Positions 38,399 through 56,111 of a stretch of 64,000 bases of DNA are shown one piece after another. Source of the DNA: Parcubacteria bacterium C7867-007 (GTDB taxonomy: Bacteria > Patescibacteriota > Minisyncoccia > Phycocordibacterales > Phycocordibacteraceae); the NCBI GenBank assembly GCA_001189195.1, contig LFCQ01000006.1, positions 56,841 to 120,840 of the forward strand, read 5' to 3'. The position numbers and the translations under genes were made by a program. Every line of letters begins with the position of its first letter. Positions within the stretch are counted from its first letter, which is position 1. Under the pieces are notes generated by a model. That model was not told the origin of the DNA. It did not search any database and saw only the letters and a program-made list of their open reading frames with translations.

Positions 38399-39709
38399 AT
38401 GACCACAGTATATATGCGGCGCAATGACGGCCGCCGTAACCCGTTCGACCGCGATGCGAGTCGTTCATCGGGCCGTCCTAATCGTTCAAGTTCTTCAAAC
38501 CGCTCTTCAGGCGGCCGCCCTTCACGTGGCGGTGATCGTTTCTCTTCAAACCGTTCATCAGGTAGTCGTCCTTCTCGTGGAGGTCGTAACTTCCAGGAAA
38601 TGGCGGTTGACCTTTCGAAGCTTATTAACAAGGCAGTAGAGGGATTTGTTGCAGAGGTATACGTACCAAAGCACCAGTTCATCGATTTCCCAGTGGATGA
38701 GAAGCTTAAGGCAAACATTATTTCTAAGGGCTATGTCACCCCAACTCCTATTCAGGATCAGTCGATCCCGGTAGTACTTGAAGGGAAGGATGTGGTTGGT
38801 ATAGCTAACACCGGTACAGGAAAGACCGCATCATTCCTCATCCCTCTTATCGACAAGGTACTCAAGATGCGTGCTGCTGGTATCGAAGAGCGTGTACTCA
38901 TCATGGTTCCAACCCGTGAGCTCGCTATTCAGATTGAGCAGGAATTCTATGGATTCGCTCGTCAGCTCGGTATTAACTCCGTAGTAGTAGTGGGTGGTGC
39001 AGGCATGGAGCCACAGGTTCGTGGCCTACGTCGCAAGCCAAACTTCGTGATCGGTACTCCCGGTCGTCTTAAGGATCTTATGGAGCGCCGTGAACTGGAT
39101 CTTTCGAAGTTCCAGACCGTGGTTCTCGATGAAGCAGACCGCATGCTCGACATGGGGTTCATCCAGGACATGCGTCACATCATGAGTTTCATGATGGATG
39201 ATCGTCACACCCTCTTCTTCTCTGCAACGCTTTCACGCGACATTGAGAAGCTGATCGGTGAATTCCTTCATGACCCCGTGCGTGTTTCGGTTAAGACCCG
39301 TGACACTGCCGCTACCGTTGATCAGGACGTGATTCGCGTTCCTTCAAGCGAGAAGCTCAACACCCTTATCGACATGCTCAAGCAGCCTGAATACGATAAG
39401 GTACTTGTTTTCGGGCGTACGAAGCATGGTGTTGAACGTCTTGCTCGTGACCTTAACCAGGCAGGTATCAAGGCCGACTCTATTCACGGAGACAAGACCC
39501 ATGGCAAGCGCCAGAAGGCCCTTGGACTCTTCAAGCAGAGTCACGTAACGGTACTTGTCGCTACTGACGTTGCTGCTCGCGGCCTCGACATTAGTGGTGT
39601 ATCGCACGTGATCAACTATGATCTTCCTGCGACGTATGAGGACTACACTCACCGCATTGGCCGTACAGGCCGTGCAGGAAAGACAGGAAAGGCACTTACG
39701 TTCATTTAA
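38399..39709 (+). CDS. DEAD-box ATP-dependent RNA helicase with N-terminal Arg/Ser/Gly-rich low-complexity extension
   Basis: Q motif, GTGKTA, DEAD, SAT, HRIGRTGR; N-terminal about 65 aa RSSGRPNRSSSSNRSSGGRPSRGG. Confidence 0.85.
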   Translation: MTTVYMRRNDGRRNPFDRDASRSSGRPNRSSSSNRSSGGRPSRGGDRFSSNRSSGSRPSRGGRNFQEMAVDLSKLINKAVEGFVAEVYVPKHQFIDFPVDEKLKANIISKGYVTPTPIQDQSIPVVLEGKDVVGIANTGTGKTASFLIPLIDKVLKMRAAGIEERVLIMVPTRELAIQIEQEFYGFARQLGINSVVVVGGAGMEPQVRGLRRKPNFVIGTPGRLKDLMERRELDLSKFQTVVLDEADRMLDMGFIQDMRHIMSFMMDDRHTLFFSATLSRDIEKLIGEFLHDPVRVSVKTRDTAATVDQDVIRVPSSEKLNTLIDMLKQPEYDKVLVFGRTKHGVERLARDLNQAGIKADSIHGDKTHGKRQKALGLFKQSHVTVLVATDVAARGLDISGVSHVINYDLPATYEDYTHRIGRTGRAGKTGKALTFI

Positions 39710-39714
39710 TTGAA

Positions 39715-39745
39715 CGAGTAATACAAAAGGGCCGGCTGTGAAGCC
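39715..39745. terminator. bidirectional terminator AAAAGGGCCGGCTGTGAAGCCGGCCCTTTG
   Basis: GC-rich perfect hairpin. Confidence 0.7.
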
Positions 39746-39768
39746 GGCCCTTTGCCGTATACGGTGAA

Positions 39769-40095
39769 CTACGCTGCGGCAGCCATCGGTTCTGCCAACT
39801 GTTGCTTGATGAACGCGATGATTTCTCCACGGATGAAAGACTTTGGCATGTCGTCACCCGCGACCCATCGAGCGAATAGTTCAGGGGTGAGTCCCCACCG
39901 ATCAAGAAAGCGGTTGGTGGTCATGCCGCAGAACAACGCGAATCGGAGGATCAGGCTGAACGTAGCGCGATCGATCTGCCCGGGATCAATTTCCGACCTC
40001 TCGAGCAGACCTCTGTAGAAGTGAATGGACTGCGTTGCGATCGCCTCAAGTCCCTTGGCGAACGTTGCGGTATTCAGACGTTCAGATTCAGACAT
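39769..40095 (-). CDS. hypothetical protein (108 aa), GC-rich, AAGGAG SD
   Basis: start MSESERLN preceded by AAAGGAG 7 nt upstream. Confidence 0.5.
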   Translation of the reverse strand: MSESERLNTATFAKGLEAIATQSIHFYRGLLERSEIDPGQIDRATFSLILRFALFCGMTTNRFLDRWGLTPELFARWVAGDDMPKSFIRGEIIAFIKQQLAEPMAAAA

Positions 40096-40259
40096 CACCA
40101 GACTCCTTTGCGGTAACGCGAGAAATGATGTGAGTTCCATTACTCAAAGTACGCCCATTATAAAAAATGTCGAGGGTGATAAGGATAACAACAAGTATAA
40201 AAGAAATCGGCCGCACGAGGTGTGCGACCGACCATTTCTTGTGGGACTGGCCCAAATGC

Positions 40260-40445
40260 TTACGCGGCGACGAGTTCCTTGACCTCGACAACTTCCAAGC
40301 TACAAACTGGACAGGTCGCGAAGAATCCACGACCGGTACAGGTGCAGAGGATAGGTTTCCTTCGGGGGTTTTCCGTTTCCGAGAGAACAGGCCTCTCAGG
40401 CTCACGCGCAGATCTAGATCCAACGGTGATCGGAATGCATATCAT
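40260..40445 (-). CDS. small Cys-rich (zinc-ribbon-like) protein (61 aa), GC-rich, AAGGAG SD
   Basis: CTC...CPVC pattern; strong SD AAGGAG 6 nt upstream of ATG. Confidence 0.5.
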   Translation of the reverse strand: MICIPITVGSRSAREPERPVLSETENPRRKPILCTCTGRGFFATCPVCSLEVVEVKELVAA

Positions 40446-40573
40446 TCGGAGCTCCTTCTGTTGCAGTCTGTTGGCAATAATGCGCTATACAGCGCCTTCA
40501 GTCAACGTTCATATAGTGGGGATAGAGGAGCTTGTAAGCTCAGAAAATCGTTATACTTAAAGGGCGAAGGCTC

Positions 40574-40852
40574 ATGGATCCATTCCTTCAGATGCATATC
40601 TTTTTTCTGGTCACCACGATCGTCGTGGTGGTACTTGGCGTACTTTCGTGCGTCGCGTTGGTGTATGTAATCCTGCTCATTCGTACTGTGGAGCGCATTG
40701 CGAGCCATGTGAACGAAGAAGCAGAAGAGATACGCGCAGATATAGATGATGTGCGAAGGAAAGCGAAACGTGAGGGGCTTCGTCTCAAGCATTTGATTAC
40801 GTTCTTTGGGAAAACTGCAAAGCGCACAAAGAAGCGCGCCGCAGCAGATTAA
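40574..40852 (+). CDS. small membrane-anchored protein with charged C-terminal helix
   Basis: N-terminal TM followed by EEAEEIRADIDDVRRKAKREG. Confidence 0.45.
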   Translation: MDPFLQMHIFFLVTTIVVVVLGVLSCVALVYVILLIRTVERIASHVNEEAEEIRADIDDVRRKAKREGLRLKHLITFFGKTAKRTKKRAAAD

Positions 40853-40871
40853 TTATTTTTGTAACTCATGT

Positions 40872-41366
40872 ATGGCAACTAAGAAAACTGTTAAGAAGAC
40901 TGTAAAGAAGGGGAAGAAGCAGAGCGATGTAATGCTTGCTGCAGAAATTGGTGCAGGTGTACTCGCAGCCGGAGCCGCTGCAGGTGCTGCGTACTACTTC
41001 TATGGAGACAAGAAGGCAAAGAAGCATCGTCAGGCTGCTGCTAAGTGGGCAAAGGGTATGAAGGCACAGGTGATTAAGGAAGCAAAGGTTGTTGCAAAGA
41101 TTGATCAGAAAGCAATGGCAGCAATTGTAGACAAGGCAGCTGCAGCATATGCAGGTGTACGTTCTGTTGATGCACAGGACCTTAAGAATGCTGCTGCTGA
41201 ACTCAAGCGCAACTGGAAGGAGGTAGAGCGCGAAGTTGAGAGCGCTCGTCGCAAGGCAAAGAGCACAGGGAAGAAGGTGGTAAAGAAGGCGACTAAGGTG
41301 GTAAACAAGGCGGCAAAGAAGGTTGTTAAGAAAACAACCCCAAAAAAGGCCTCAAAGAAGCGTTAA
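40872..41366 (+). CDS. Lys/Ala-rich (histone-H1-like low-complexity) protein with one hydrophobic segment
   Basis: MATKKTVKKTVKKGKKQ...KKVVKKATKVVNKAAKKVVKKTTPKKASKKR. Confidence 0.5.
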   Translation: MATKKTVKKTVKKGKKQSDVMLAAEIGAGVLAAGAAAGAAYYFYGDKKAKKHRQAAAKWAKGMKAQVIKEAKVVAKIDQKAMAAIVDKAAAAYAGVRSVDAQDLKNAAAELKRNWKEVEREVESARRKAKSTGKKVVKKATKVVNKAAKKVVKKTTPKKASKKR

Positions 41367-41392
41367 ATTAGGGTGTGATAGGATAGACCAAT

Positions 41393-42109
41393 ATGGAAAA
41401 CACAAAAAGCGCATTTATGGACCGATACCTTACTCCGTTAGCAGTATTGCTTGCGGCAGTAATTATCGCTCTTGCAATGATTTATGGTCAGGGTCTTGGT
41501 TCAGGCAACAAAGGGGCTGATGGTAAGGCTGCAGTAGCAGTAGACATCAAAGATGTTAAGACGGACAACAGTCCGTATATTGGAGACAAGAATGCACCTA
41601 CCACCGTTGCAGTCTTCTATGATTACCAGTGCCCATTCTGCAAGCAGTTTGAGGAGGCAGTAACTCCTAAACTCATCGATGCGTATGTGAAGGAAGGAAA
41701 GACAAAGATTGTCTTCAAGGACTTCCAGTTCCTCGGTGAGGACTCAACCACTGCAGCACTATTCGGTCGTGCCCTTTGGGAGGCACATCCTGATAAGTTC
41801 CATGACTGGTTCGTTGCAATGGCTGGTGCTCAAGATGATGAAGGTGATCAGGGCTTCGGAGATCTTGCATCTATCCAGAAACTATCGGCAGGTATTCCTG
41901 GGATCGATGTTGCAAAGGTAACCAAGCTCATGACTGATAAGAAGGCTGACTACATGAAGGCAATTGAAGCTGATCGTGCAGAAGGTGCCGCTCTCGGTAT
42001 CAACGGTACACCAAGCGTTATTGCAGGTACTAAGCTCTTCTCAGGCATGTCTCCTGATGCATTCTTCACTGGAATCTCGGCACAGCTTGATGCACAGCTG
42101 AAGAAGTAA
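41393..42109 (+). CDS. DsbA-like thiol:disulfide oxidoreductase, membrane-anchored
   Basis: thioredoxin CPFC active site in FYDYQCPFCKQF; N-terminal TM. Confidence 0.75.
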   Translation: MENTKSAFMDRYLTPLAVLLAAVIIALAMIYGQGLGSGNKGADGKAAVAVDIKDVKTDNSPYIGDKNAPTTVAVFYDYQCPFCKQFEEAVTPKLIDAYVKEGKTKIVFKDFQFLGEDSTTAALFGRALWEAHPDKFHDWFVAMAGAQDDEGDQGFGDLASIQKLSAGIPGIDVAKVTKLMTDKKADYMKAIEADRAEGAALGINGTPSVIAGTKLFSGMSPDAFFTGISAQLDAQLKK

Positions 42110-42183
42110 TTGACATGTCATAGCAATTTGCTACGATTGTCTATGACAGTTACCCTCTGGTGAAAACCAAACGAGAGTGGAAG

Positions 42184-42220
42184 AAAAACACCGACCCATA
42201 AAGTCGGTGTTTTTCTTTTT
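42184..42220 (+). terminator. intrinsic terminator AAAAACACCGACCCATAAAGTCGGTGTTTTTCTTTTT
   Basis: perfect hairpin and T tract. Confidence 0.75.
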
Positions 42221-42241
42221 CAGTTGTATTTGATTTTCTTC

Positions 42242-42277
42242 TTACGCCCTCCATATCACTATTTTTCTATAGTAATC
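42242..42277 (+). promoter_or_regulatory. conserved upstream motif TTACGCCCTCCATATCAC-N8-TATAGTAAT
   Basis: near-identical to 21638-21670. Confidence 0.45.
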
Positions 42278-42281
42278 CTGC

Positions 42282-42349
42282 GCCGGTGGTTTCGGTGACG
42301 AGAGGGTAATTGTCACTCCACTCTTGAGGGTTCAACTCCCTCCACCGGC
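42282..42349 (+). other. 68-nt tRNA-derived palindromic element, copy 2 (GCCGGTGG...GAGGG-TTCAACT-CCCTC-CACCGGC)
   Basis: same ends and length as 2119-2186; internal GTGAC/GTCAC hairpin; sits immediately upstream of a TATATACT box and ATG at 42370. Confidence 0.5.
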
Positions 42350-42369
42350 TAAGGATATATACTGAATAC

Positions 42370-42870
42370 ATGAAAATAGTCACGGCACATGATCCCATGC
42401 AGCCGGGATACTGCTATGAATTAACGGCACCAGAAGGGGAAGGCTTTGATTCAGAGTTCAAACCAGATCTCACACCCAAAGATATGTTTGAACGCGGCGT
42501 CTTTGGAGGAAACTATTTTGAAGGACATCTCGACGAGTTCCCCAAAGATTGGCTAAAGAACGCAAAGATCTCTACGGTACACGACAAGAGCTTGAACTAC
42601 TTTGGTATCGACGCATCACAACCTTATGAAGTCTGGAAGGCAAAAGGATGGATATACAAAGATGATCCACGGGGGTGGTTCCAGTGGTATTGCCGATACT
42701 ATAGGGGGCGACGTATCCCCGAAGAAGATGCACGCCAAATAAAGCGCTGGAAGCAAATGGTTCGCCATGTTGCTCAGGTACGGTATGGATGCCGCAAAGG
42801 TGATTTCACCTGCCGAACACGCCAGCGACAAGCTCTGTTACACTGGGCATACGATAGCGCAGCACTCTAA
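42370..42870 (+). CDS. hypothetical protein (166 aa)
   Basis: ORF; TATATACT 6 nt upstream of ATG. Confidence 0.45.
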   Translation: MKIVTAHDPMQPGYCYELTAPEGEGFDSEFKPDLTPKDMFERGVFGGNYFEGHLDEFPKDWLKNAKISTVHDKSLNYFGIDASQPYEVWKAKGWIYKDDPRGWFQWYCRYYRGRRIPEEDARQIKRWKQMVRHVAQVRYGCRKGDFTCRTRQRQALLHWAYDSAAL

Positions 42871-42880
42871 TTATCTACCC

Positions 42881-43117
42881 ATGAATATCCCCACACCTGG
42901 TATCTACTATCACTTCAAACACCCAGAACAACACTACCAAGTCCTTGGAGTTGCATTTCATACCGAAACTGAAGAAGACATGGTGGTGTATAAGGCTCTG
43001 TATGGAGAAGAAAAACTCTATGTACGTCCACTAGCTATGTTTTTGGAGTATGTTGAAAAACCAGAATTTGGCTATAGTGGCCCGCGCTTTGTACGTATTG
43101 AGGCCACTCATGGTTGA
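42881..43117 (+). CDS. DUF1653 domain protein
   Basis: GIYYHFKHPEQHYQVLGVAFHTETEEDMVVYKALYGE pattern. Confidence 0.55.
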   Translation: MNIPTPGIYYHFKHPEQHYQVLGVAFHTETEEDMVVYKALYGEEKLYVRPLAMFLEYVEKPEFGYSGPRFVRIEATHG

Positions 43118-43541
43118 AGAAGAACGATTCAAAGTACTTGTTGCTGAGGCATGGGAGCATGTTCCTGAACACTGGCGTGCTCAAGTACAAAACGTTGCAC
43201 TGTTGGTTGAAGATGAGCCAAGTGATGATGTGCGTGCAGAGGAAGGACTTGGGCCAGAGGATACTCTTCTTGGGTTATATCATGGTGTACCAAATACCGA
43301 ACGAGGTGAAGGGTATGGAGTGGGATCTGTACTTCCAGATACCATCACGTTGTACCGCATACCAATTCTTGAAGAAGCACGGCATCACCTAGGAGAATCA
43401 GATTCTCCCGAAGTATTTGAAATGATTGTACGCACTGTTATACAGGAAACTTTATGGCACGAGATAGGCCACTACTTTGGTCTTTCAGAAGGAGCGATAG
43501 ATGAACGAGAACAAGAAGGGACAAATTGGTTCGAACCTTAG
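43110..43541 (+). CDS. zincin-like metallopeptidase family protein (HExxH)
   Basis: TLWHEIGHYFGLSEG motif. Confidence 0.5.
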   Translation: MVEEERFKVLVAEAWEHVPEHWRAQVQNVALLVEDEPSDDVRAEEGLGPEDTLLGLYHGVPNTERGEGYGVGSVLPDTITLYRIPILEEARHHLGESDSPEVFEMIVRTVIQETLWHEIGHYFGLSEGAIDEREQEGTNWFEP

Positions 43542-43599
43542 TGTCTAAATATAAAGCACGTGTTACACGCTTTGAAGCATCAAGTAGTGCGCTGTAATA

Positions 43600-44079
43600 C
43601 TATTGCTCCACATTAGAAAATACTTCGTTTGATCCATAGGCTTCACTAAAATCACCAAAACGAACCCATGTTGGGACAAGCTTAAATAATAGTGGCATCG
43701 CTGAATCCATGTGTGTTATTGGAGCGGATGGTTCTCCCTTAGGGAAGAGTCGCGCAGTGAGATCGGAGAGGACGGGACCAAAGGTGGCGGTGTCGGTAAT
43801 TTCTTCAAACACACCCTCTATCTGCAGTGTCTGGTTTCCCTCCAAATCAGTTACTACAAACGCTGCATGAGGATTTGAGTGGATATCATTCACTTTGCGT
43901 GTGTTCGCCAGCGTCAAGAAATATACGGACAGTGCATCATCGCATGCGTAATATAGCGTGCGTACGCGTGGAGTTCCTTCTACAGAGACTGTTGCAAGAG
44001 AGCCATGAGAGTGTGCTTTAAGAAAGGCGACGGCGTCAGATTTTTGCATTTTGGATGTTTCCATTGCATAAGTATACAC
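43600..44079 (-). CDS. pyridoxamine 5'-phosphate oxidase-like FMN-binding protein
   Basis: split-barrel pattern LATVSVEGTPRVRTLYY...AAFVVTD. Confidence 0.6.
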   Translation of the reverse strand: MYTYAMETSKMQKSDAVAFLKAHSHGSLATVSVEGTPRVRTLYYACDDALSVYFLTLANTRKVNDIHSNPHAAFVVTDLEGNQTLQIEGVFEEITDTATFGPVLSDLTARLFPKGEPSAPITHMDSAMPLLFKLVPTWVRFGDFSEAYGSNEVFSNVEQ

Positions 44080-44114
44080 CCTGCAAGAGCGAAGGATAAT
44101 GCTACCATTTCTTC

Positions 44115-44708: not shown

Positions 44709-44718
44709 AGAGACTTAG

Positions 44719-45555: not shown

Positions 45556-45637
45556 ACCTAGACTATACTCTGCGGCCCCGTTTTTGCGATATACTCTATA
45601 CAACCAGATCTCTGGCAAGTAAAGAACCACAGAAACT

Positions 45638-46265: not shown

Positions 46266-46754
46266 ATGCCTGACTACAAGAACAACAGCCGTTTTAAGAA
46301 ACCCTTTACCAGTGGTGGTCCGAGTCGTGGACCTGCCCGTTTTGGTCGCCCAAACACCGATGGACCTCGTGAAATGCACACTGCAGAATGCAGTAAGTGC
46401 CACAAGTCCTGCCAGGTACCGTTCCGTCCAAACGGAACAAAGCCGGTATTCTGTGGAGACTGCTTCACCCGTGATGGTGATTCTCGCGACTCTCGCGATA
46501 CCCGCGGCTCATACCAGAAAAAGGAATATGGTGCTCCTCGCACAGCAGCTCCCACTGAGGATCGTCGTATAGACGAGCTCAAGCGCCAGCTTATTCAGAT
46601 GGACAGCAAGCTTGATCGTCTCGTACAGATGATTGATGCAGCAAACCGTGCACCTGCAACAAAGACAAAGACTGCTGCTCCTGCTGAAGCACCTGCAAAG
46701 GCAAAGAAAGTAGCAGTGAAGAAAGTTGTTGCTAAGAAAGCAAAGAAAGCCTAA
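46266..46754 (+). CDS. CxxC...CxxC zinc-ribbon protein with RG-rich N-terminus and Lys/Ala-rich C-terminal tail
   Basis: CSKCHKSCQVPFRPNGTKPVFCGDCF; tail KAKKVAVKKVVAKKAKKA. Confidence 0.55.
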   Translation: MPDYKNNSRFKKPFTSGGPSRGPARFGRPNTDGPREMHTAECSKCHKSCQVPFRPNGTKPVFCGDCFTRDGDSRDSRDTRGSYQKKEYGAPRTAAPTEDRRIDELKRQLIQMDSKLDRLVQMIDAANRAPATKTKTAAPAEAPAKAKKVAVKKVVAKKAKKA

Positions 46755-46772
46755 CGGTACCTTTGACGTAAC

Positions 46773-47105: not shown

Positions 47106-47156
47106 ATCCTTCCTAAGCTCCTTCCATCTCCTATAACCACATCCCCTAAATCCAGG

Positions 47157-48409: not shown

Positions 48410-48433
48410 AATCTATCCCTCGGGATATCAAAC

Positions 48434-48458
48434 GGGCCCCTCCAGAACAGAGGGGCCC
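48434..48458 (+). terminator. GC-rich hairpin GGGCCCCTCCAGAACAGAGGGGCCC after gcrA-like gene
   Basis: perfect stem; weak T tract. Confidence 0.5.
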
Positions 48459-48472
48459 GTGATCTATTTTCC

Positions 48473-48859: not shown

Positions 48860-48917
48860 ATATGAGAATTATACCCCTATGACAAAGCGTTGCCGATAGG
48901 CTAGGATTAAGAGACGT

Positions 48918-49400: not shown

Positions 49401-49406
49401 CGTTTC

Positions 49407-50573
49407 ATGCCTATGCCACGCATCATCTCACTCGCACTTCTCACCCTGATGCTTCCGATACTCGCGCACGCAGCAACGTTTGCTGAAGATAAGACATTGG
49501 TCCTCTCAGATGCGCCTCCTGATAACACGTATCTTGCGGGCGTAACGGTAACGGTGAGTGCACCATTGCCTGCAGATCTTGCTGCAACCGGGGGTACCGT
49601 AACAACCTATTCTCCTATTACGGGTGATGCCCTTATCGCTGCAGGCACCATTCACATGCAAGAGCGAGTGGAGGGGGACGTGCGTGCAATGGGACTTCGT
49701 GTGTTGATTGATGGTGCTGTTAGAGGCGACGTAGTGGCAGCAGGCGCAACGGTTAAGGTTACTGCACCAGCACGTGATGTTCGTCTTTTTGGACTACAGG
49801 TACTTGCTACCGGAGGAGCAGAAGGACCGGTAACGATATACGGCACCGATGTAACGCTGGCTGGTGAGTATGCGGGTGATGTTGAGATAATTGCATCAGA
49901 CCGGCTCACCATTGGTCCAGATACCCGTATTCACGGCACGCTTCGCTATAACGCACCGCAACAGGTGGAGATACCTGCATCCTCGCTGGTTGATGGAGGA
50001 ATAACCTATACCGGATCGTATGCGTATGTCCCAACGAATGAAGAGGTTAAAAAGTTTGCGATTGCCGGTGCCGGCATCTTCTTTATGGTACGTGCACTTG
50101 CGGTGATGGTTGCTGCAGGTCTACTCGCAGGATTGTTCCCAATGTTTAGCACACCACTTGCTGCACGCGTATTCACACGCCGATACTCTCGTCTTAGTCT
50201 CATAGCACTGCTTGGTTTCGGTATCCTCATTGCTGCACCTGTCCTAATTCTTCTCTTAAGTGTTTCATTTGTCGGTGCAGCCATCGCTCTGCTTCTTGGA
50301 TCTGCATATATTCTTCTGCTTATCCTTTCATATCTCTACGCAGGTATTTTGGTTGGTGGGGCAGTGAGGCACTTTGCAACTAAGCGCTCGGCAACCCTCA
50401 TCTACTGGCAAGACGCGCTTGTTGGTATGCTCCTGCTCTTCATTGCAGGAAGTATCCCCTATGTCGGCTGGATTATTACACTCCTTGCGGTGTGTATCAC
50501 TCTTGGAGCGCTTGTTTCAAATCTATACCTCTTCGCGTTCCGCCGCACCACCTCTTGGCATACTGAATTCTAA
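49407..50573 (+). CDS. bactofilin-like beta-helical repeat protein with signal peptide and C-terminal TM domain
   Basis: repeats GDVRA.GLRVLIDGAVRGDVVAAGATVKV; 4 C-terminal TM. Confidence 0.4.
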   Translation: MPMPRIISLALLTLMLPILAHAATFAEDKTLVLSDAPPDNTYLAGVTVTVSAPLPADLAATGGTVTTYSPITGDALIAAGTIHMQERVEGDVRAMGLRVLIDGAVRGDVVAAGATVKVTAPARDVRLFGLQVLATGGAEGPVTIYGTDVTLAGEYAGDVEIIASDRLTIGPDTRIHGTLRYNAPQQVEIPASSLVDGGITYTGSYAYVPTNEEVKKFAIAGAGIFFMVRALAVMVAAGLLAGLFPMFSTPLAARVFTRRYSRLSLIALLGFGILIAAPVLILLLSVSFVGAAIALLLGSAYILLLILSYLYAGILVGGAVRHFATKRSATLIYWQDALVGMLLLFIAGSIPYVGWIITLLAVCITLGALVSNLYLFAFRRTTSWHTEF

Positions 50574-50577
50574 TCCT

Positions 50578-51051
50578 ATGGCTATTCCACATGTTGGTTC
50601 TGTTGCGCCCGCCTTCACTCTTCCTGATCAGGATGGAGCTCAACATACGCTCTCAGAAGCAAAAGGGAAGTATGCGCTTGTATACTTCTATCCAAAAGAT
50701 GATACCGGTGGGTGTACCAAGGAAGCCTGTTCTCTAGGAGAGTATTTCCCTGACTTCTCAAAAAGCGGTGCGGTGATATATGGAATCTCTCCGGATAGTG
50801 TGAAGAGCCACAAGAAGTTTGCAGAGAAATACAACCTGCCATTCACTCTCCTTGCAGATCCCGAGCACCAAGCCATAAAAGCATACGATGTGTGGGGAAA
50901 GAAGAAATTCATGGGACGTGAATATGATGGGGTGTACCGTACCTCATTCCTCATTGCACCAGATGGCACTATTGCGAAGGTATACGAGAGCGTAAAACCT
51001 GAATCACATGCACAGGAAGTACTGAACGACCTGAAAGAACTTGGTGCGTAA
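50578..51051 (+). CDS. bcp: thioredoxin-dependent peroxiredoxin Bcp
   Basis: FYPKDDTGGCTKEAC peroxidatic Cys motif. Confidence 0.85.
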   Translation: MAIPHVGSVAPAFTLPDQDGAQHTLSEAKGKYALVYFYPKDDTGGCTKEACSLGEYFPDFSKSGAVIYGISPDSVKSHKKFAEKYNLPFTLLADPEHQAIKAYDVWGKKKFMGREYDGVYRTSFLIAPDGTIAKVYESVKPESHAQEVLNDLKELGA

Positions 51052-51053
51052 CT

Positions 51054-51719
51054 ATGAATAGTAAACAGGAAGAACGGAAACTACGTGCAAAGAAGATACT
51101 CACTTATCTTAAGAAAACGTATCCGGAACCAAAGACAGAACTTGCCTATAAGACACCGGTACAACTTACCGCTGCTGTCATGCTTTCTGCGCAGTCTACA
51201 GACAAACGTGTGAATCAGGTTACAGAAACTCTCTGGAAGAAGTACAAGACCGTGAACGATTTCGCTGATGCTGATCTTGCAACTTTCACAAAGGAAATCT
51301 CAAGCATCACGTTCTATCGTAATAAGGCTAAAGCAATCATTGGTATGGCACAGCGTGTACGTAGTGAATATGGAGGAACGATTCCCAAGACTGAAACAGA
51401 ACTTGTTACTCTTCCCGGTATCGCGTACAAGTCCGCTCACGTGATTATGGGTGAGCTATACAACATATACGAAGGTATCCCCACAGACACACATGTACGT
51501 CGCTTTGCCCTTCGATTTGATCTCACTGATAGCAAGGATCTCACAAAGATTTCAAAAGATCTTGAAGCGCTGATTCCAAAAGGGGACTGGAAGTATGTAA
51601 ACAACGGACTGGTGTTGTATGGTCGCTATCTCTGCAAAGCGCTTCCACACGACTGTGATGGCCATCCTCTCACCAAGATCTGGCCACCTGCAGCAGAGCG
51701 TTGGCCGAAGAGCAAATAG
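51054..51719 (+). CDS. nth: endonuclease III (HhH-GPD)
   Basis: HhH-GPD LPGIAYKSAHVIM and catalytic region; C-terminal Cys cluster. Confidence 0.8.
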   Translation: MNSKQEERKLRAKKILTYLKKTYPEPKTELAYKTPVQLTAAVMLSAQSTDKRVNQVTETLWKKYKTVNDFADADLATFTKEISSITFYRNKAKAIIGMAQRVRSEYGGTIPKTETELVTLPGIAYKSAHVIMGELYNIYEGIPTDTHVRRFALRFDLTDSKDLTKISKDLEALIPKGDWKYVNNGLVLYGRYLCKALPHDCDGHPLTKIWPPAAERWPKSK

Positions 51720-51729
51720 TTGCGTATTT

Positions 51730-52017
51730 GATATGTGGGTATATAGTGCCCCCTAGGTTCGGTTCCTTGAAGCCTGTAAGGTCAGATGAGTCCTGAGGGG
51801 ACGATTCGTAGACACACCTGTGTGTTCCTCGTTGCAGTTAACCAAATGTCAGTTTGGTCCAACGCTCTGCGGCCTAATGGTGTGCGAGTCGTCAGGATAT
51901 AGCGCAGCTTGCTGCGCACTAACGTCACCCTAGTAGTCTAGAGGGATCGAACCAACCCTTTCTGTATTTCGTAGCCGCCACTTCGCGCGTCGCCCTCCCA
52001 GCGACGCGCTCTTTTTA
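51730..52017 (+). ncRNA. candidate structured non-coding RNA of unknown class ending in a strong terminator
   Basis: about 290 nt with no ORF, multiple hairpins, GGGGACGATTCG segment, terminator CGCGCGTCGCCCTCCCAGCGACGCGC + TCTTTTT at 51984-52016. Confidence 0.35.
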
Positions 52018-52061
52018 TACCTTCCCCTTTCATATCCACAGGATAGACTGTTGATATTGCT

Positions 52062-52871
52062 ATGGATTCTAGGAAGTTCAGGAAAATCATATGGGACTTT
52101 TATAAAAAACAAGGAAGGCATGATCTTCCTTGGAGAAACACCACTGACCCCTACCGCATCCTTGTCTCAGAGGTAATGCTGCAACAAACTCAGGTTGAGC
52201 GTGTTCGCGGATATTACGCTGCATGGCTCAAAAGGTTTCCAACAGTACGTGCGCTTGCCAAAGCACCCCTCGCTGAGGTCCTCACCCTGTGGCAGGGTCT
52301 TGGATATAATCGTCGTGCAAAGATGTTGCATGATGCAGCGAAGAAGGTGGTTATTGAATACAAAGGAAAAATGCCCACTGATCCAGATACTCTTGTATCT
52401 CTGCCCGGTGTTGGGCCATACACTGCACGTGCCGTAGCGGCATTCTCAATGAATGCAGACGTAGTGTTTATTGAGACAAACCTACGAACAGTAGTACTGC
52501 ACCATTTCTTCTCAGACAAGAAGCAGGTCTCAGATGCAGAAATATTGGAAGTACTAAGCAAATCACTTCCAAAAGGAAGATCACGAGAGTGGTATGCCGC
52601 ACTTATGGACTACGGTTCCTATCTAAAGCGCAGCGGTATACGTGTGAACACAAAGAGCATGAGTTATACAAAACAGACTGCTTTCAGTGGTTCTGGAAGA
52701 CAAGCACGGGGTGCCATTCTTAAAGAACTTGCACGAAACTCAGTAACGAAGAAACGCCTCCTCGTATTACTTGGTGACGATCGTATTGAACAGATGGAAA
52801 CACAGCTCAAGAAGCTTATATTGGAAGGAATGGTTGAGAAAACAGGAACATACTATACGTTGCCGAGTTAA
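52062..52871 (+). CDS. mutY: MutY-like adenine DNA glycosylase catalytic domain (no NUDIX domain)
   Basis: LPWRNTTDPYRILVSEVMLQQTQV...LPGVGPYTARAVAAF HhH-GPD. Confidence 0.7.
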   Translation: MDSRKFRKIIWDFYKKQGRHDLPWRNTTDPYRILVSEVMLQQTQVERVRGYYAAWLKRFPTVRALAKAPLAEVLTLWQGLGYNRRAKMLHDAAKKVVIEYKGKMPTDPDTLVSLPGVGPYTARAVAAFSMNADVVFIETNLRTVVLHHFFSDKKQVSDAEILEVLSKSLPKGRSREWYAALMDYGSYLKRSGIRVNTKSMSYTKQTAFSGSGRQARGAILKELARNSVTKKRLLVLLGDDRIEQMETQLKKLILEGMVEKTGTYYTLPS

Positions 52872-54148
52872 GCAGGATCTACACCGGAGCTGATAGCGAC
52901 CTGCTTAAGACGCATGCCTTGAATCGAGTTAGCTGCAATGACCCCGCCAACCGCAATAAGGATTCCCGTAACGATAAAGAATATAGTGAAGTTGCTGATC
53001 ATTAGAATGATGGTGCCCACGAGAGGTGCGATGAGTGCGCCTAATGGACGCATCATACGAAATATACTGACCGTGTTGATGTCTTGTTCAGATACCCTAC
53101 GAAAGAAGTGACCCTCTACCATTGCTTCAACAAGTGCAGCACCGATACGGGTTAGCAGAAGGATGCTCAGGATAATTAAGATAGAAGTTTCTGCAGTGAT
53201 GAATCCGATAAACGCAAAGGAAATACCGGTGCAGATGAATCCAGCAATGAGTAGTATGCGATCTCCAAATTTAGTGTCTGCGAGTACTCCTGCGGGGTAC
53301 TCAAGTACCACAAATGGAATCAACATCACCGCAAAGACCCACCCAAGTTGAGACCACGGAATACCTAATACGGTGTGAAGGTATAGAGGAATATACAGTG
53401 GTGCGAGATGGAAGAAGAATTGGAGAATACCCATCGCGATTGCTACGGCTCGTAGATCCTTATCCTTTGCAATGCATGCGCAGGCTTCCGTGACATTGTG
53501 TATGCCAAGAATATGCTTAGAGGGTAGTTTGCGAAGGAACATCAAGAGTATGACTGGTATGAGGGAGAGTGACGCAACCAAGAAGACTCTATCGTAATGG
53601 ACATCTCCATCAAGAAGTAGGCCAATGATAAGGGGCGCAATCACCAACATAATATTGCCCGCAGTGAGGAATGCTGTGCGTACACGGCCCGTTTCATCTT
53701 CGCTCTCAACAGTAGCTTCAAGAAGAATATCCAGCTGATACACCAGTAGGGGAGAAACGGCACAAGCAAGTGCTGCAAGTAGTACCGCACCGACTGCCGT
53801 TGGAATAAGTGCGAGCCATAGCAGGATGCACATCTCTACCAATGCAAAAAAGATCACAAGACGCTGAGCACCATGCTGCGCCACAAGCTTTGGCATGAAA
53901 GGGAAGACACCGAGTGTTACCAATGCACCCAAAGCGACCACCAAACCAGTGCTCTCTTTGGGCATGAATATCGCCAGATATGGCGTGAGTATATATATAA
54001 TGAGGAAAAAGTGCGCTGCAGCAAAGAAATTGCTTAGTGAAAGAATACGGCGCGCTTGCATAGTGATACGAATTGTACCATTTGCATAAAAGAAACGGCC
54101 GCACATAATGCGGCCGTTTCTTTGTAAAACTACGTTGCTACACTCCAA
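52868..54148 (-). CDS. MFS transporter
   Basis: 12 TM; 426 aa. Confidence 0.7.
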   Translation of the reverse strand: MECSNVVLQRNGRIMCGRFFYANGTIRITMQARRILSLSNFFAAAHFFLIIYILTPYLAIFMPKESTGLVVALGALVTLGVFPFMPKLVAQHGAQRLVIFFALVEMCILLWLALIPTAVGAVLLAALACAVSPLLVYQLDILLEATVESEDETGRVRTAFLTAGNIMLVIAPLIIGLLLDGDVHYDRVFLVASLSLIPVILLMFLRKLPSKHILGIHNVTEACACIAKDKDLRAVAIAMGILQFFFHLAPLYIPLYLHTVLGIPWSQLGWVFAVMLIPFVVLEYPAGVLADTKFGDRILLIAGFICTGISFAFIGFITAETSILIILSILLLTRIGAALVEAMVEGHFFRRVSEQDINTVSIFRMMRPLGALIAPLVGTIILMISNFTIFFIVTGILIAVGGVIAANSIQGMRLKQVAISSGVDPA

Positions 54149-56111
54149 TCAGTACCGGAATAACCATCGGTGCTTTATTGGTGCGGTTGAAGAGGTACCC
54201 ACTCATAACGTCTGTAAGATTGTTCTTCACATAGTCGAGATCTACCGGATTCATACCATGGGTAGAATCTTCCACTGTCTTCTTAATGAGCAGGCGGGCC
54301 TGGTTAAGAAGATCTTGGCTTTCACGTAGATATACGAAGCCACGAGAGATGATATCGGGAGACTTGCGCAGCTTTCCTGTCTTCAAGTTCACGGTAGCGA
54401 TGATGACGAACATACCATCCTTTGCGAGGGCCTGACGATCACGGATCACCACCTCCTGCATATCACCGATTGCAAAGCCATCTACGATAAGTGGGGAAGA
54501 GGGAACCTTCTCTTTGTGAATATCAAGGCGCTCTCCATCAATGATGTCGATCACCATACCGTTATCAGCAACGATGATGGAATCACGAGCACGTCCCGCC
54601 TGTTCCATTGCCTTTGCGTGTGATGCGGTCATCGAGTAGTACCCGTATGCAGGCATGAAGAAGGTTGAGTTAACTTTCTTATTGATCCAGATTAGCTCAC
54701 CCGTGTTGCCGTGACCGGTTGAGTGCACGTCACTTGAACGATAGTGGATGAGGGTAACCCCATTACGGTATAGATTGTCCTTCAGCTTCTGTACGGCAAT
54801 CTCATTTCCAGGAATAACTGAAGAGGAAAGAACGATGGTGTCGCGTGGGTTAAGCTGGACATTCTTATGCTGCTTCGTTGCGATACGCATGAGTGCTGCA
54901 AACTCCTCACCTTGTGCACCAGTAGAAAGAATAACAATCTTGTCTGGTGAGTAGTCACCAATTTCCTGTGCAGGGATAATTGTATCTTTCTTGATGTTGA
55001 TAAGATTGGTCTTCTGAGCAATCTCAAGGTTCGTCTTGATAGAACGACCCTCTGTTACCACCTTCTTTCCAAGCTTCTCGCAAGTCTCGATGATGTGAAT
55101 CATACGTTCGAACTGAGAAGCGAAGGTACCAATGATAAGACGTCCATGTACATTCTTGATGATTTCCTCAAGCGTTTCATGCACTTTACGTTCTGGCATA
55201 GAGAAGCCATCACGCTCAGCGTTAGTTGAGTCTGCGATAAAGAAGAGATTCTTCTGTGCAGCGAGTACACCCCAGGTCTTCTCTTCTTTTGCGGTTGGAA
55301 CACCGTTGTCATGATCCAGCTTAAGATCTCCCGTTACCACTACATTGCCGTATGGAGTCTCAATAGCGATACCCATGGAATCAGGAATCGAGTGAGTAAC
55401 ACCGAAGAACTGAACCTTGGTGGATCCAATGGTCATAGTCTGACCCGCTTCAACCACCACAATGTTTGGCTTAGGCACATCAGGATACTCTTCCTGACGC
55501 TTCTGAATCATCACCGCAGTGAGGTTCTGGGTGTAGATCGGTGGATTGCCGAAACGATTCATCAAGAATGGAATACCGCCGATGTGGTCGAGGTGACCGT
55601 GGGTGATGAACACACCACGTACACGATCGGTGTTCTTCTCAAGGTATGCCGTGTTTGGAAGCATGTAGTCCACTCCAGGATTGGAATCCTCAGATACGAA
55701 CTGGAAGCCTACGTCGAAGACGAAGATATCTCCGTTCGTTTCAACGCAGAACATGTTGCGTCCCACTTCCTCCACACCACCGAGCGGAATCACACGAACT
55801 ACGTTTGATGCCGGAGCAGCAGGGAAGTAGTCCGCACCACGCTTTGGGGTGCTGTTTGGGGCAGGGCGGCGCATACGCATGCGGTCGCGAGATGACCCAC
55901 GACTTGCTCCACGCGGCCCAGCAGGGCGGTTGTTGCGGGGTCCTTCAGCGCGTGGCGCGCTTCCTTCAGGACGCGGTCCACGATTTTGACCACCGCGTCG
56001 TACGGGACGACGTGATGCACCCTCAGGACGTGGGGTGCGTGCTGGGGAATCCTGACGAGGACCATCGTGCGGAGTACGAGGTGCCGGAGCAGGTGCTGGT
56101 GCTGATGCCAT
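54138..56111 (-). CDS. rnj: ribonuclease J with about 100-aa N-terminal Arg/Pro/Gly-rich disordered extension
   Basis: metallo-beta-lactamase HGHLDH, beta-CASP; N-terminus PAPAPAPRTP...RRGGQNRGPRPEG. Confidence 0.85.
   Translation of the reverse strand: MASAPAPAPAPRTPHDGPRQDSPARTPRPEGASRRPVRRGGQNRGPRPEGSAPRAEGPRNNRPAGPRGASRGSSRDRMRMRRPAPNSTPKRGADYFPAAPASNVVRVIPLGGVEEVGRNMFCVETNGDIFVFDVGFQFVSEDSNPGVDYMLPNTAYLEKNTDRVRGVFITHGHLDHIGGIPFLMNRFGNPPIYTQNLTAVMIQKRQEEYPDVPKPNIVVVEAGQTMTIGSTKVQFFGVTHSIPDSMGIAIETPYGNVVVTGDLKLDHDNGVPTAKEEKTWGVLAAQKNLFFIADSTNAERDGFSMPERKVHETLEEIIKNVHGRLIIGTFASQFERMIHIIETCEKLGKKVVTEGRSIKTNLEIAQKTNLINIKKDTIIPAQEIGDYSPDKIVILSTGAQGEEFAALMRIATKQHKNVQLNPRDTIVLSSSVIPGNEIAVQKLKDNLYRNGVTLIHYRSSDVHSTGHGNTGELIWINKKVNSTFFMPAYGYYSMTASHAKAMEQAGRARDSIIVADNGMVIDIIDGERLDIHKEKVPSSPLIVDGFAIGDMQEVVIRDRQALAKDGMFVIIATVNLKTGKLRKSPDIISRGFVYLRESQDLLNQARLLIKKTVEDSTHGMNPVDLDYVKNNLTDVMSGYLFNRTNKAPMVIPVLIGV

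What the first reader, a model, noticed from the sequence alone, without database searches (positions are those of the whole stretch)
38399..56111. Arg-rich disordered extensions on RNA-decay enzymes and Lys/Ala-rich tails on small proteins
The DEAD-box helicase carries an unusual N-terminal RS/RGG-like tract of about 65 aa (RSSGRPNRSSSSNRSSGGRPSRGGDRFSSNRSSGSRPSRGG). RNase J carries an N-terminal Arg/Pro/Gly-rich tract of about 100 aa. The zinc-ribbon protein at 46266 has an RG-rich N-terminus and a KAKKVAVKKVVAKKAKKA tail, and the protein at 40872 is a histone-H1-like K/A-rich polypeptide. Such IDRs are typical scaffolds for degradosome-like assemblies or nucleoid or RNA condensates, which suggests lineage-specific RNA-granule biology.
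Basis: partly seen in the sequence, partly recalled or inferred. Interest (0 to 1): 0.5.

Follow-up and report, generated by a model that had tools for sequence, protein, structure and literature searches.

The report
Arginine-rich disordered tails on RNA enzymes
In this tiny-genome Parcubacteria bacterium, the main RNA-degrading enzyme (RNase J) and a DEAD-box RNA helicase each carry a real, lineage-wide, positively charged floppy N-terminal tail, a feature previously described for RNase J only in Helicobacter, which suggests but does not prove an RNA-decay assembly.

Summary
The window is from Parcubacteria bacterium C7867-007 (CPR/Patescibacteria).

- **Helicase and RNase J.** The helicase (38399-39709) has a 68-aa Arg/Ser-rich N-terminal extension. 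RNase J (54138-56111, minus strand) has one of about 100 aa, rich in Arg/Pro/Gly. Neither is a start-site artefact. 115 of 120 helicase homologs carry an extension, as do 77 of 77 species-representative RNase J loci. All RNase J extensions are net-cationic. AlphaFold2 predicts both window extensions to be disordered.
- **Embedded motifs.** The tails contain protein-level conserved motifs: M-x-x-(AP)4-5 on RNase J and MATTYIRR on the helicase.
- **Position of the helicase tail.** All 15 complete Parcubacteria-type helicase genes recovered from metagenomes have the basic tail at the N-terminus and none at the C-terminus. Non-CPR homologs show the reverse.
- **Zinc ribbon.** Its RG-rich head and Lys-rich tail are family-wide.
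- **"H1-like" protein.** It is a divergent YtxH-like protein with a hydrophobic helix and Lys-rich tails, not a histone.

The degradosome or condensate reading is plausible by analogy with H. pylori RNase J/RhpA and Pseudomonas RhlE, but it is untested. Charges are well mixed, unlike the blocky pattern I recall for RNase E.

I classify this as a new variant of a known kind, of moderate interest. In passing I found a covarying, possibly bistable 5' leader upstream of the helicase.

The parts
38399..39709 (+). DEAD-box RNA helicase gene (436 aa). It has no C-terminal extension beyond RecA2.
   Evidence: The core aa 93-436 aligns to solved DEAD-box cores such as CshA 5ivl. It is 100% identical to the C7867-007 'DeaD' entry.
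38399..38602 (+). Helicase N-terminal Arg/Ser-rich disordered extension (aa 1-68).
   Evidence: pLDDT below 50 for aa 1-68. NCPR +0.16 and kappa 0.14. 115 of 120 homologs carry an extension of 40 aa or more.
38399..38437 (+). Helicase N-cap motif MTTVYMRRNDGRR (family consensus M-A-T-T-Y-I-R/V-R-x-D/N-G/S-R). It marks the true start codon at 38399.
   Evidence: 81 of 115 homologs have the cap. Synonymous codons vary across 9 loci, so selection acts on the protein. The GenBank entry starts 5 codons later.
38585..38629 (+). Conserved junction motif (R/K)(N/G)FQEMxVDLSKLIN linking the tail to the helicase core.
   Evidence: Alignment A2 shows E67, M68, D71, L72, S73, L75 and K78 nearly invariant and N77 invariant. 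The truncated homolog calls begin at this internal Met.
54138..56111 (-). RNase J gene (657 aa).
   Evidence: Solved RNase J structures align from query aa 96-105 onward.
55812..56111 (-). RNase J N-terminal Arg/Pro/Gly-rich disordered extension (aa 1-100).
   Evidence: pLDDT below 50 for aa 1-89. NCPR +0.15. 77 of 77 GTDB species-representative loci carry an extension of 46-218 aa, all net-positive.
56079..56111 (-). RNase J N-cap M-A-S-(AP)4.
   Evidence: A5, P6, A7, P8 and A9 are invariant in 62 sequences. 104 of 120 close homologs begin M..(AP)n. All four Ala and all four Pro codons are used across the window and 10 related loci. The cap is present in only 12 of 80 species loci, those of the closest clade.
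55857..55898 (-). Arg-rich motif SRDRMRMRRPAP (aa 72-85). It corresponds to RPGRVSRQIRRTLRRP in many orthologs and is followed by the conserved KRGADYFPxAP.
   Evidence: R81 is nearly invariant; Y94 and P96 are invariant.
46266..46754 (+). CxxC-x17-CxxC zinc-ribbon protein (162 aa). RG-rich head is aa 1-37 (46266-46376), the Zn domain is aa 35-69 (46368-46472), and the Lys/Ala-rich tail is aa 123-162 (46632-46751).
   Evidence: 110 of 120 family members have 30% or more K/R in the last 30 aa, and most have RG/FG-rich heads.
40872..41366 (+). K/A-rich small protein (164 aa), a divergent YtxH-like protein. Lys-rich N-terminus is aa 1-19, the G/A-rich hydrophobic helix is aa 20-38 (40929-40985), the conserved GYYFYG-x-K-x-AKKHR..AAKWA helical core follows, and the Lys-rich tail is aa 121-164 (41232-41363).
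   Evidence: Kyte-Doolittle peak 1.67 at aa 20-38. The family has 584 representatives. 24 of 61 members hit PF12732 YtxH, best E 8e-7. 132 of 150 have K/R-rich tails.

Best explanation
[quoted passage not shown] Each tail is a polycationic, intrinsically disordered arm with three elements. The first is a short conserved cap at the extreme N-terminus. The second is an Arg-rich spacer of variable length and low complexity. The third is a conserved basic or junction motif next to the catalytic core.

Most likely mechanism (inferred): the Arg-rich arms bind RNA non-specifically and multivalently. This would tether the enzymes to mRNA, to rRNA precursors or to ribosomes, and raise the local substrate concentration. 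In the helicase, the arm would take over the job done by the C-terminal basic tails of CshA, RhlE and DeaD. The embedded caps and motifs are candidate docking sites for partners.

RNA-bridged co-assembly of the two enzymes, as a minimal RNase J-based degradosome and possibly as condensates, is a plausible extension of this model but has not been shown.

The zinc-ribbon protein is a separate small family. It has an RG-rich head and a Lys-rich tail and is probably a nucleic-acid binder. The 40872 protein is a YtxH-like protein with a hydrophobic helix and Lys-rich tails, and has no evident link to RNA decay.
For: Shown directly:
- Sequence and domains as described.
- Both tails are predicted disordered and are net-cationic with few hydrophobic residues.
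- Conservation is broad. 115 of 120 helicase homologs and about 100 of 120 RNase J homologs carry an extension. So do 77 of 77 species-representative RNase J loci, with median length 96 aa and median NCPR +0.13. K/(R+K) tracks GC content (rho -0.72), so the charge is kept while the residue used drifts.
- The caps lie directly after the first start codon. Their synonymous sites vary freely, so selection acts on the protein and the starts are correct.
- The core of the (AP) cap is as invariant as catalytic residues.
- More distant clades keep the tail but carry different embedded motifs. This is typical of IDR evolution.
- In the 15 complete Paceibacteria-type helicase genes recovered from metagenomes, the N-terminal extension is 50-128 aa and the C-terminal extension is about 0. 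About 35 non-CPR homologs have a median N-terminal extension of 1 aa and C-terminal extensions of 27-418 aa.
- Within the window, such tails occur only on these proteins.

By analogy:
- Basic IDRs of RhlE1/2 drive RNA binding, stimulate unwinding, support RNA-dependent phase separation and mediate RNase E binding (PMC11260450).
- H. pylori RNase J has an N-terminal IDR, partners with RhpA and forms foci (PMC7492731, PMC10700544).
- CPR genomes retain rnj, rnc and pnp as their core RNases (PMC12641178).
Against: - There is no experimental or co-evolution evidence that the two enzymes interact. The (AP) cap co-occurs with several different helicase cap types.
- The genes are 14 kb apart and not in one operon. 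RNase J's conserved neighbours are a solute-binding protein, SecG and an MFS transporter.
- Charges are well mixed rather than blocky. This argues against self-coacervation of the RNase E type. Any condensation would have to depend on RNA.
- AlphaFold2 gives no confident docking of the caps or motifs onto the cores.
- RNA binding by the tails is inferred from composition only.
Confidence: 0.6

Rival explanations
1. Condensate or degradosome scaffold. In this view the two N-terminal IDRs mainly drive assembly of an RNase J-helicase degradosome and phase-separated RNA granules.
For: Both enzymes carry IDRs of the kind that drive foci in H. pylori (PMC7492731) and droplets for RhlE (PMC11260450). 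Arg-rich tails are multivalent RNA binders. The tails are conserved across the lineage and contain embedded short motifs.
Against: No interaction data exist. The charge pattern is well mixed, not blocky. There is no operon linkage and no cap co-variation. The tails are short (68-100 aa) and have few aromatic residues (2-4).
Confidence: 0.25
2. Ribosome-directed tails. In this view the cationic arms anchor RNase J and the helicase to ribosomes or pre-ribosomal particles, compensating for the reduced set of ribosome-biogenesis factors in CPR.
For: CPR genomes have about half the usual number of biogenesis factors yet keep rnj, and that study counts rhlE among ribosome-biogenesis factors (PMC12641178). 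From my own knowledge, H. pylori RNase J/RhpA associates with ribosomes. The helicase gene lies downstream of a BipA-type GTPase gene in the two relatives where this was checked. In the window the upstream 622-aa ORF was inferred to be BipA but was not scanned.
Against: Nothing in the sequence distinguishes rRNA binding from general RNA binding. This explanation is not exclusive of the best explanation.
Confidence: 0.3
3. Annotation artefact or non-functional low-complexity drift. In this view the tails come from mis-called upstream starts or from neutral expansion of repeats.
For: A few database homologs are called from internal Met codons. The organism lacks Shine-Dalgarno motifs, so start calling is hard. 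The spacer sequence evolves quickly.
Against: The caps sit exactly at the first start codon after AT-rich non-coding DNA containing stop codons, and they are conserved at protein level with free synonymous variation. All 77 species loci keep a net-positive tail. Residues within the tails are invariant. No DNA tandem repeats were found except the (AP) hexamer.
Confidence: 0.03
4. Localisation signal. In this view the polycationic tails target the enzymes to anionic membrane lipids or to the nucleoid rather than to RNA substrates.
For: The H. pylori degradosome is associated with the membrane (PMC7492731). Polycations bind acidic lipids and DNA.
Against: The tails have no amphipathic or hydrophobic segment (hydrophobic fraction about 0.13). 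Arg-rich rather than Lys-rich composition favours RNA binding. The Lys-rich tails in this window sit on other proteins.
Confidence: 0.1

Closest known systems
Helicobacter pylori RNase J / RhpA minimal degradosome (PMC7492731, PMC10700544)
   Same: RNase J carries an N-terminal IDR of about 100-135 aa ahead of the beta-lactamase domain. It is paired in the cell with a single DEAD-box helicase that also has an IDR. An RNase J-based decay system works without a large RNase E scaffold.
   Different: There is no detectable sequence homology between the tails. The full-length H. pylori chain 8cgl aligns only from its residue 144 to query residue 103. The H. pylori papers call the tail specific to Helicobacter, whereas here it is class-wide in Paceibacteria. 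Here the helicase IDR is N-terminal; in RhpA it is C-terminal. No interaction or foci data exist for this lineage.
Pseudomonas aeruginosa RhlE1/RhlE2, and CshA/DeaD-type bacterial DEAD-box helicases with basic C-terminal IDRs (PMC11260450)
   Same: A RecA1-RecA2 core plus one basic disordered extension. In RhlE that extension promotes RNA binding, unwinding, RNA-dependent droplets and nuclease interaction.
   Different: The extension here is at the N-terminus and the C-terminus ends at RecA2 (15 of 15 complete Paceibacteria-type genes against about 35 non-CPR homologs). The protein scores below the NCBIfam equivalog cut-offs for CshA, RhlE and DeaD.
Eukaryotic DEAD-box helicases with N-terminal RG-rich IDRs (LAF-1/DDX3, DDX4/Vasa; from my own knowledge)
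   Same: The same domain order: an N-terminal Arg/Gly/Ser-rich IDR followed by a DEAD core. The core is close to Vasa and DDX3X in PDB searches.
   Different: The tail here is much shorter, with few aromatic residues and only 2 RGG in the window protein. The origin is bacterial, and this is very probably convergence.
RNase E C-terminal scaffold and BR-bodies of alpha-proteobacteria (PMC11321048, PMC12691583)
   Same: An IDR on the main decay nuclease, proposed to organise the decay machinery.
   Different: The nuclease family differs. The RNase E IDR is C-terminal, much longer and, from my own knowledge, has blocky alternating charge. Here the charges are well mixed.
CxxC-x17-CxxC (TIGR04272 / PF23477) small zinc proteins of Methanosarcina mazei (PMC12704099)
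   Same: The same zinc-binding domain. Zinc binding was shown experimentally there, and function is unknown in both.
   Different: The Patescibacteria family adds an RG/FG-rich head, a predicted helical middle and a Lys/Ala/Val-rich tail.
YtxH-like proteins (PF12732)
   Same: An N-terminal G/A-rich hydrophobic helix followed by a helical domain. 24 of 61 family members hit the Pfam model.
   Different: The window protein itself does not reach any YtxH score. The family has a distinctive GYYFYG..AKKHR motif and Lys-rich tails at both ends.

Membership tests
RNase J (TIGR00649 subfamily; NF047419 RNase J1) | Metallo-beta-lactamase domain with the HxHxDH motif, a beta-CASP domain and the RNase J C-terminal domain. 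Score above the family cut-off. | tested here: met
   PF00753, PF22505 and PF17770 all hit. The HGHLDH motif is present. TIGR00649 scores 474.2 against a cut-off of 400. The narrower RNase J1 model scores 536.8 against a cut-off of 820, which is not met. The protein is therefore an RNase J family member and not specifically a J1.
DEAD-box RNA helicase | RecA1 and RecA2 domains with the Q motif, motif I (GTGKT), motif II (DEAD), motif III (SAT) and motif VI (HRIGRTGR). | tested here: met
   PF00270 E 3e-46 and PF00271 E 1e-31. All motifs can be read in the translation.
CshA / RhlE / DeaD equivalogs (NCBIfam) | Whole-protein score above the equivalog cut-off. A C-terminal basic or dimerisation extension. 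| tested here: not met
   CshA scores 404.8 against 646, RhlE 361.4 against 743 and DeaD-type 287.9 against 989. The protein ends at RecA2.
H. pylori-type RNase J degradosome | N-terminal IDR on RNase J. | tested here: met
   pLDDT below 50 for aa 1-89. The tail is analogous but not homologous.
H. pylori-type RNase J degradosome | Physical RNase J-helicase complex and regulated foci. | not testable with these tools
   This needs pull-downs or imaging. No operon linkage or cap co-variation was seen.
BR-body-type condensate scaffold | Long IDR with segregated blocks of opposite charge that drive self-association (feature taken from my own knowledge of RNase E). | tested here: not met
   Helicase kappa is 0.137 against a shuffle mean of 0.232. 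RNase J kappa is 0.202 against 0.216. Both tails are net-cationic and well mixed.
RGG/RG-motif domain | Clustered RGG repeats (di- or tri-RGG within a few residues; definition from my own knowledge). | tested here: not met
   The window helicase tail has 2 RGG that are 17 aa apart, and 8 RS/SR dipeptides. RNase J has 1 RGG. 29 of 115 helicase orthologs do have 3 or more RGG, so the family drifts in and out of RGG character.
CxxC-x17-CxxC domain (TIGR04272 / PF23477 zf_Tbcl_2) | Four Cys residues spaced CxxC-x17-CxxC. Score above the cut-off. | tested here: met
   52.5 against 36 and 53 against 27. The motif reads CSKCHKSCQVPFRPNGTKPVFCGDC.
Linker histone H1 / H1-like nucleoid protein | Winged-helix globular domain, or an entirely Lys/Ala-repeat polypeptide that binds DNA. 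| tested here: not met
   No linker-histone or other DNA-binding domain was found at E up to 10. A conserved hydrophobic helix and a YtxH-like core are present instead. Only the tails are H1-like in composition.
YtxH-like (PF12732) | Pfam model hit. N-terminal G/A-rich hydrophobic helix plus a helical domain. | tested here: inconclusive
   The window protein has no hit. 24 of 61 aligned family members do hit, best E 8.2e-7. The architecture matches.

The most novel reading that the evidence does not exclude
Paceibacteria, and perhaps CPR bacteria more widely, organise RNA decay and ribosome maturation around an RNase E-independent assembly. In this reading the N-terminal Arg-rich IDRs of RNase J and of the DEAD-box helicase co-condense on RNA. 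Clade-specific N-terminal caps, (AP)n on RNase J and MATTYIRR on the helicase, would act as docking motifs for a shared and still unknown partner. Helicase dosage would be set by the covarying, possibly bistable 5' leader found upstream of its gene.
Probability: 0.2. Interest if true: 0.7.

Novelty: new variant of a known kind. Interest (0 to 1): 0.45.

Why it matters
In the papers I read, N-terminal IDRs on RNase J are described as peculiar to Helicobacter. Here an unrelated, cationic N-terminal IDR is universal in a whole class of ultra-small, mostly uncultured bacteria. In the same lineage the DEAD-box helicase has moved its basic tail from the C-terminus to the N-terminus.

Three consequences follow:
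- It offers a natural, independent second case for asking what such tails do on RNase J: RNA tethering, degradosome assembly or condensates.
- It supplies short conserved motifs that can be mutated directly.
- It shows that gene callers mis-start or truncate these genes in genomes that lack Shine-Dalgarno motifs.

The work stays computational. No function has been demonstrated.

Tried and rejected
- **Mis-called starts.** Rejected. The caps lie at the first start codon, are conserved with free synonymous variation, and have non-coding DNA upstream.
- **RBS-based start discrimination.** Uninformative. SD-like motifs are essentially absent in the window: 9 of 45 genes have weak 4-5 nt matches. 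The internal Met codons have none either.
- **RNA-level selection on the (AP)n cap**, for example an mRNA element. Rejected, because all four Ala and all four Pro codons are used.
- **DNA tandem-repeat origin of the tails.** Only the 6-nt (AP) repeat scores.
- **Pfam or NCBIfam domains inside the tails.** None found.
- **Homology of the tail to the H. pylori RNase J tail.** None detected.
- **Proteome-wide compositional bias.** Rejected by the window census.
- **Histone-H1 identity of the 40872 protein.** Rejected. A PDB profile search of its family found nothing significant.
- **Conserved synteny linking the helicase, zinc ribbon and RNase J.** Seen only in very close relatives. It is absent across the 80 species loci.
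- **Literature on CPR RNase J or helicase IDRs.** Searches found nothing.
- **Rfam match for the helicase leader.** None. The only hit was a spurious mir-156 match on a terminator.


Full report
**Source and identity.** The helicase is 100% identical to 'ATP-dependent RNA helicase DeaD' of Parcubacteria bacterium C7867-007, and the zinc-ribbon protein matches a hypothetical protein of the same genome. The organism belongs to the Patescibacteria group / CPR. All close homologs come from Patescibacteria, Paceibacterota or Parcubacteria records.

**Checking the observation.**
- The helicase (38399-39709, +) has DEAD and Helicase_C domains. Its core starts at about aa 92.
- The minus-strand ORF 54138-56111 is an RNase J. 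It has MBL, beta-CASP and RNase_J_C domains and scores 474 bits on TIGR00649 against a cut-off of 400. Its core starts at aa 103-105.
- 46266-46754 carries a CxxC-x17-CxxC zinc ribbon (PF23477 / TIGR04272).
- 40872-41366 has no Pfam hit.
- Solved RNase J structures from B. subtilis, S. aureus, S. coelicolor, T. thermophilus and D. radiodurans align from query residues 96-105 to their own residues 7-24. The first ~100 residues are therefore an add-on. The full-length H. pylori chain aligns only from its residue 144, so the two tails show no detectable homology.
- The helicase ends exactly at the end of RecA2.

- Of the 120 best helicase homologs, 115 have a tail of 40 aa or more. Eighty-one of these begin with a recognisable cap, M-[AT]-T-T-Y-I-[RV]-R, and nearly all share the junction motif (K)RGFQEMxVDLSKLI. 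The five short entries begin at the internal Met of that junction motif. They look like truncated gene calls.
- The window sequence MTTVYMRRNDGRR aligns residue for residue with the consensus MATTYIRRxDGRR. The ATG at 38399 is therefore the ancestral start, and the GenBank model (431 aa, starting MRRNDGRR) is probably five codons short. A close relative has the same DNA and the same short call.
- For RNase J, about 100 of 120 homologs carry the tail, with a median of 86 aa before the core. 104 of 120 begin M-x-x-(AP)n. In a 62-sequence alignment A5, P6, A7, P8, A9, Y94 and P96 are invariant, as are the catalytic residues.
- In both genes the cap follows the start codon directly, after AT-rich non-coding DNA. 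Synonymous positions vary freely: all four Pro and all four Ala codons appear in the AP cap, and Thr, Tyr, Ile and Arg codons vary in the helicase cap. Selection therefore acts on the peptide, not on an RNA element.
- Shine-Dalgarno evidence cannot help. Only 9 of 45 window genes have even a 4-5 nt SD-like match, and the internal Met codons have none.

**Breadth.** A scan of one genome per GTDB species returned 80 RNase J loci at 47-81% identity. They include Yonath-, Adler-, Zambryski- and Taylorbacteria and other Paceibacteria, plus many records labelled automatically as Saccharibacteria.
- All 77 loci with complete upstream sequence have an N-terminal extension of 46-218 aa (median 96).
- All 77 are net-positive (NCPR from +0.03 to +0.29, median +0.13) and poor in hydrophobic residues (median 0.13).
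- The Lys share of the basic residues rises as GC content falls (rho -0.72). The charge is kept while the residue used drifts.
- The (AP)n cap is confined to the closest clade (12 of 80 loci). Other clades have their own embedded motifs, for example an N-terminal NRIRSFHA, RRRSMTxPALTHRM, or GHRVVLGKGxxKHPE...AGARMNVIRKES.
- A conserved bulk property with clade-specific short motifs is the usual signature of a functional IDR.

**Helicase contrast set.** A metagenome scan gave a natural control. All 15 complete Paceibacteria-type helicase genes have N-terminal extensions of 50-128 aa (NCPR +0.08 to +0.22) and C-terminal extensions of -3 to +4 aa. About 35 non-CPR homologs at roughly 45% identity have a median N-terminal extension of 1 aa and C-terminal extensions of 27-418 aa, mostly net-positive. 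The lineage has in effect moved the basic tail from the C-terminus to the N-terminus.

**Physical character.**
- AlphaFold2 with 62- and 69-sequence alignments gives pLDDT below 50 and no secondary structure for RNase J 1-89 and helicase 1-68. The cores are modelled confidently.
- Both tails fall on the disordered side of the charge-hydropathy boundary. They have R:K ratios of 16:0 and 21:1, few aromatic residues, and a well-mixed rather than blocky charge pattern. Helicase kappa is 0.14 against 0.23 for shuffles.
- The window helicase tail is R/S-rich with only 2 RGG, although 29 of 115 orthologs have 3 or more.
- Within the same genome, the tails of the two small proteins are Lys-rich instead (K:R of 11:1 and 16:3). 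The Arg and Lys tails are thus two different classes and not one compositional quirk.
- A window-wide census flagged such basic segments only in the helicase, RNase J and the zinc ribbon among credible genes.

**The two small proteins.**
- The zinc-ribbon architecture is family-wide in Patescibacteria. It consists of an RG/FG-rich head, a CxxC-x17-CxxC domain, a helical middle and a KKVVAKKxKK-type tail. 110 of 120 members have 30% or more K/R in the last 30 residues. The domain binds zinc in Methanosarcina small proteins, and its function is unknown (PMC12704099).
- The 40872 protein belongs to a family with 584 representatives. The conserved part is a G/A-rich hydrophobic helix (Kyte-Doolittle 1.67 at aa 20-38), a GYYFYGxKxAKKHR..AAKWA motif and a helical domain. 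24 of 61 members hit Pfam YtxH (best E 8e-7), and 132 of 150 have K/R-rich tails. It is a divergent YtxH-like protein that is probably membrane-associated. 'Histone-H1-like' describes only the composition of its tails.

**Interpretation.** What is shown is conserved, disordered, cationic N-terminal modules with embedded motifs on the main decay nuclease and on the helicase. CPR genomes retain rnj, rnc and pnp as their core RNases (PMC12641178). What is inferred is function.
- The best-supported mechanism is non-specific, multivalent RNA binding that tethers the enzymes to their substrates. For the helicase, this would replace the C-terminal basic tail that in RhlE1/2 promotes RNA binding, unwinding, RNA-dependent droplets and RNase E binding (PMC11260450).
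- A degradosome-like RNase J-helicase assembly is plausible by analogy with H. pylori. There RNase J has a non-homologous N-terminal IDR, which the authors describe as specific to Helicobacter, and it forms foci with RhpA (PMC7492731, PMC10700544).
- Nothing here tests that analogy, and several points argue for caution. The genes are not linked. RNase J's conserved neighbours are an SBP_bac_5 protein (77 of 80 loci), SecG (60 of 80), an MFS transporter (52 of 80) and GroEL (47 of 80). The (AP) cap co-occurs with several helicase cap types. The charge pattern is not of the blocky, self-associating RNase E type that I recall from the literature.

**Novelty.** I found no paper describing these tails in CPR. 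I rate this as a new variant of a known kind, namely IDR-decorated RNA-decay enzymes, and of moderate interest.

**Side finding.** The ~165 nt upstream of the helicase start are 94.6% identical over 168 nt by blastn between the window and a relative whose helicase is 86% identical. By MAFFT, only about 7 mismatches fall within the ~160-nt conserved core. The flanking DNA diverges.
- In 11 orthologs the leader has a -10-like box and a conserved 5' box. These are followed by A (CGTCTTGAGAG), A' (CTCAAGAC), a variable hairpin B, an AAA spacer and A'' (CTCTCGAGACG).
- A:A' is paired in 80 of 80 cells, with one compensatory change.
- The outer 5 bp of stem B pair in 47 of 50 cells, with 3-4 pair types at most positions. 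Column shuffles average 28.2 and never exceed 39.
- A'' is also complementary to A. In the central 8 bp, 78 of 80 cells pair.
- The A:A' and A:A'' pairings are mutually exclusive. The predicted minimum-free-energy fold picks A:A'' in 6 orthologs and A:A' in 4.
- There is no Rfam match.
- This is a candidate cis-regulatory, possibly bistable leader for the DEAD-box gene. I drew the segment boundaries by eye, so it needs a proper covariance analysis.

Noticed in passing
window 38222-38398 (+). A is 38257-38267, A' 38282-38289, hairpin B 38290-38321 and A'' 38325-38335.: A conserved structured 5' leader lies upstream of the DEAD-box helicase gene. It is 94.6% identical over 168 nt to a relative whose helicase protein is only 86% identical. 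It was recognisable in 11 of about 24 orthologs examined. Helix A:A' pairs in 80 of 80 cells. The stem of hairpin B covaries strongly (47 of 50 paired against a shuffle mean of 28). A third segment, A'', is also complementary to A, so two mutually exclusive folds are possible. No Rfam family matches. It is a candidate riboregulator, thermosensor or autoregulatory switch. I segmented it by eye and built no covariance model.
   Followed up: partly
window 38399 versus 38414: The public annotation of this helicase (431 aa) and the gene calls in close relatives start at the second ATG (MRRNDGRR). The ortholog consensus MATTYIRRxDGRR aligns to MTTVYMRRNDGRR, so the true start is very likely 38399. 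An Ile-to-Met change created the second ATG.
   Followed up: yes
whole window (45 gene starts): Shine-Dalgarno-like motifs are almost absent upstream of genes. Nine of 45 have a 4-5 nt partial match and none has a longer one. Upstream regions are AT-rich, for example ...aaatatattATG for RNase J. This points to SD-independent or short-leader initiation, and it explains the inconsistent start calls in databases.
   Followed up: partly
window 52868-60654; loci L001-L080: RNase J sits in a gene neighbourhood that is strongly conserved across Paceibacteria. The SBP_bac_5 solute-binding protein immediately upstream is found in 77 of 80 loci. The SecG-domain protein is in 60 of 80, the MFS transporter overlapping the RNase J stop codon in 52 of 80, and GroEL in 47 of 80. 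Why this non-RNA context is so conserved is unexplained.
   Followed up: partly
window 57892-58452 (-): The SecG-domain protein is 186 aa long, and the SecG match covers only aa 122-181. It therefore has an N-terminal extension of about 120 aa that begins with a hydrophobic segment (MFRTIFFFIGIVLALCGF...). This is unusually long for SecG.
   Followed up: no
window 35437-37305 (+); L081 534-2318; L163 1-305: A BipA/TypA-type translational GTPase gene lies upstream of the helicase gene in the two relatives checked. In the window the upstream 622-aa ORF is inferred to be the same gene but was not scanned. This may hint at a ribosome-related context for the helicase.
   Followed up: no
window 49407-50573 (+): A 388-aa protein with a signal-peptide-like N-terminus and a weak, sub-threshold bactofilin match (24.6 bits against a cut-off of 27.9) is conserved near RNase J in 20 of 80 loci.
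   Followed up: no
window 56112-56194 (-): The 83-nt gap between the SBP gene and RNase J contains a GC-rich inverted repeat (GTAGGCAGGACGCACGCGTCACCTAC) followed by a T-rich run. This looks like an intrinsic terminator, so RNase J probably has its own promoter and a very short leader (by eye).
   Followed up: no
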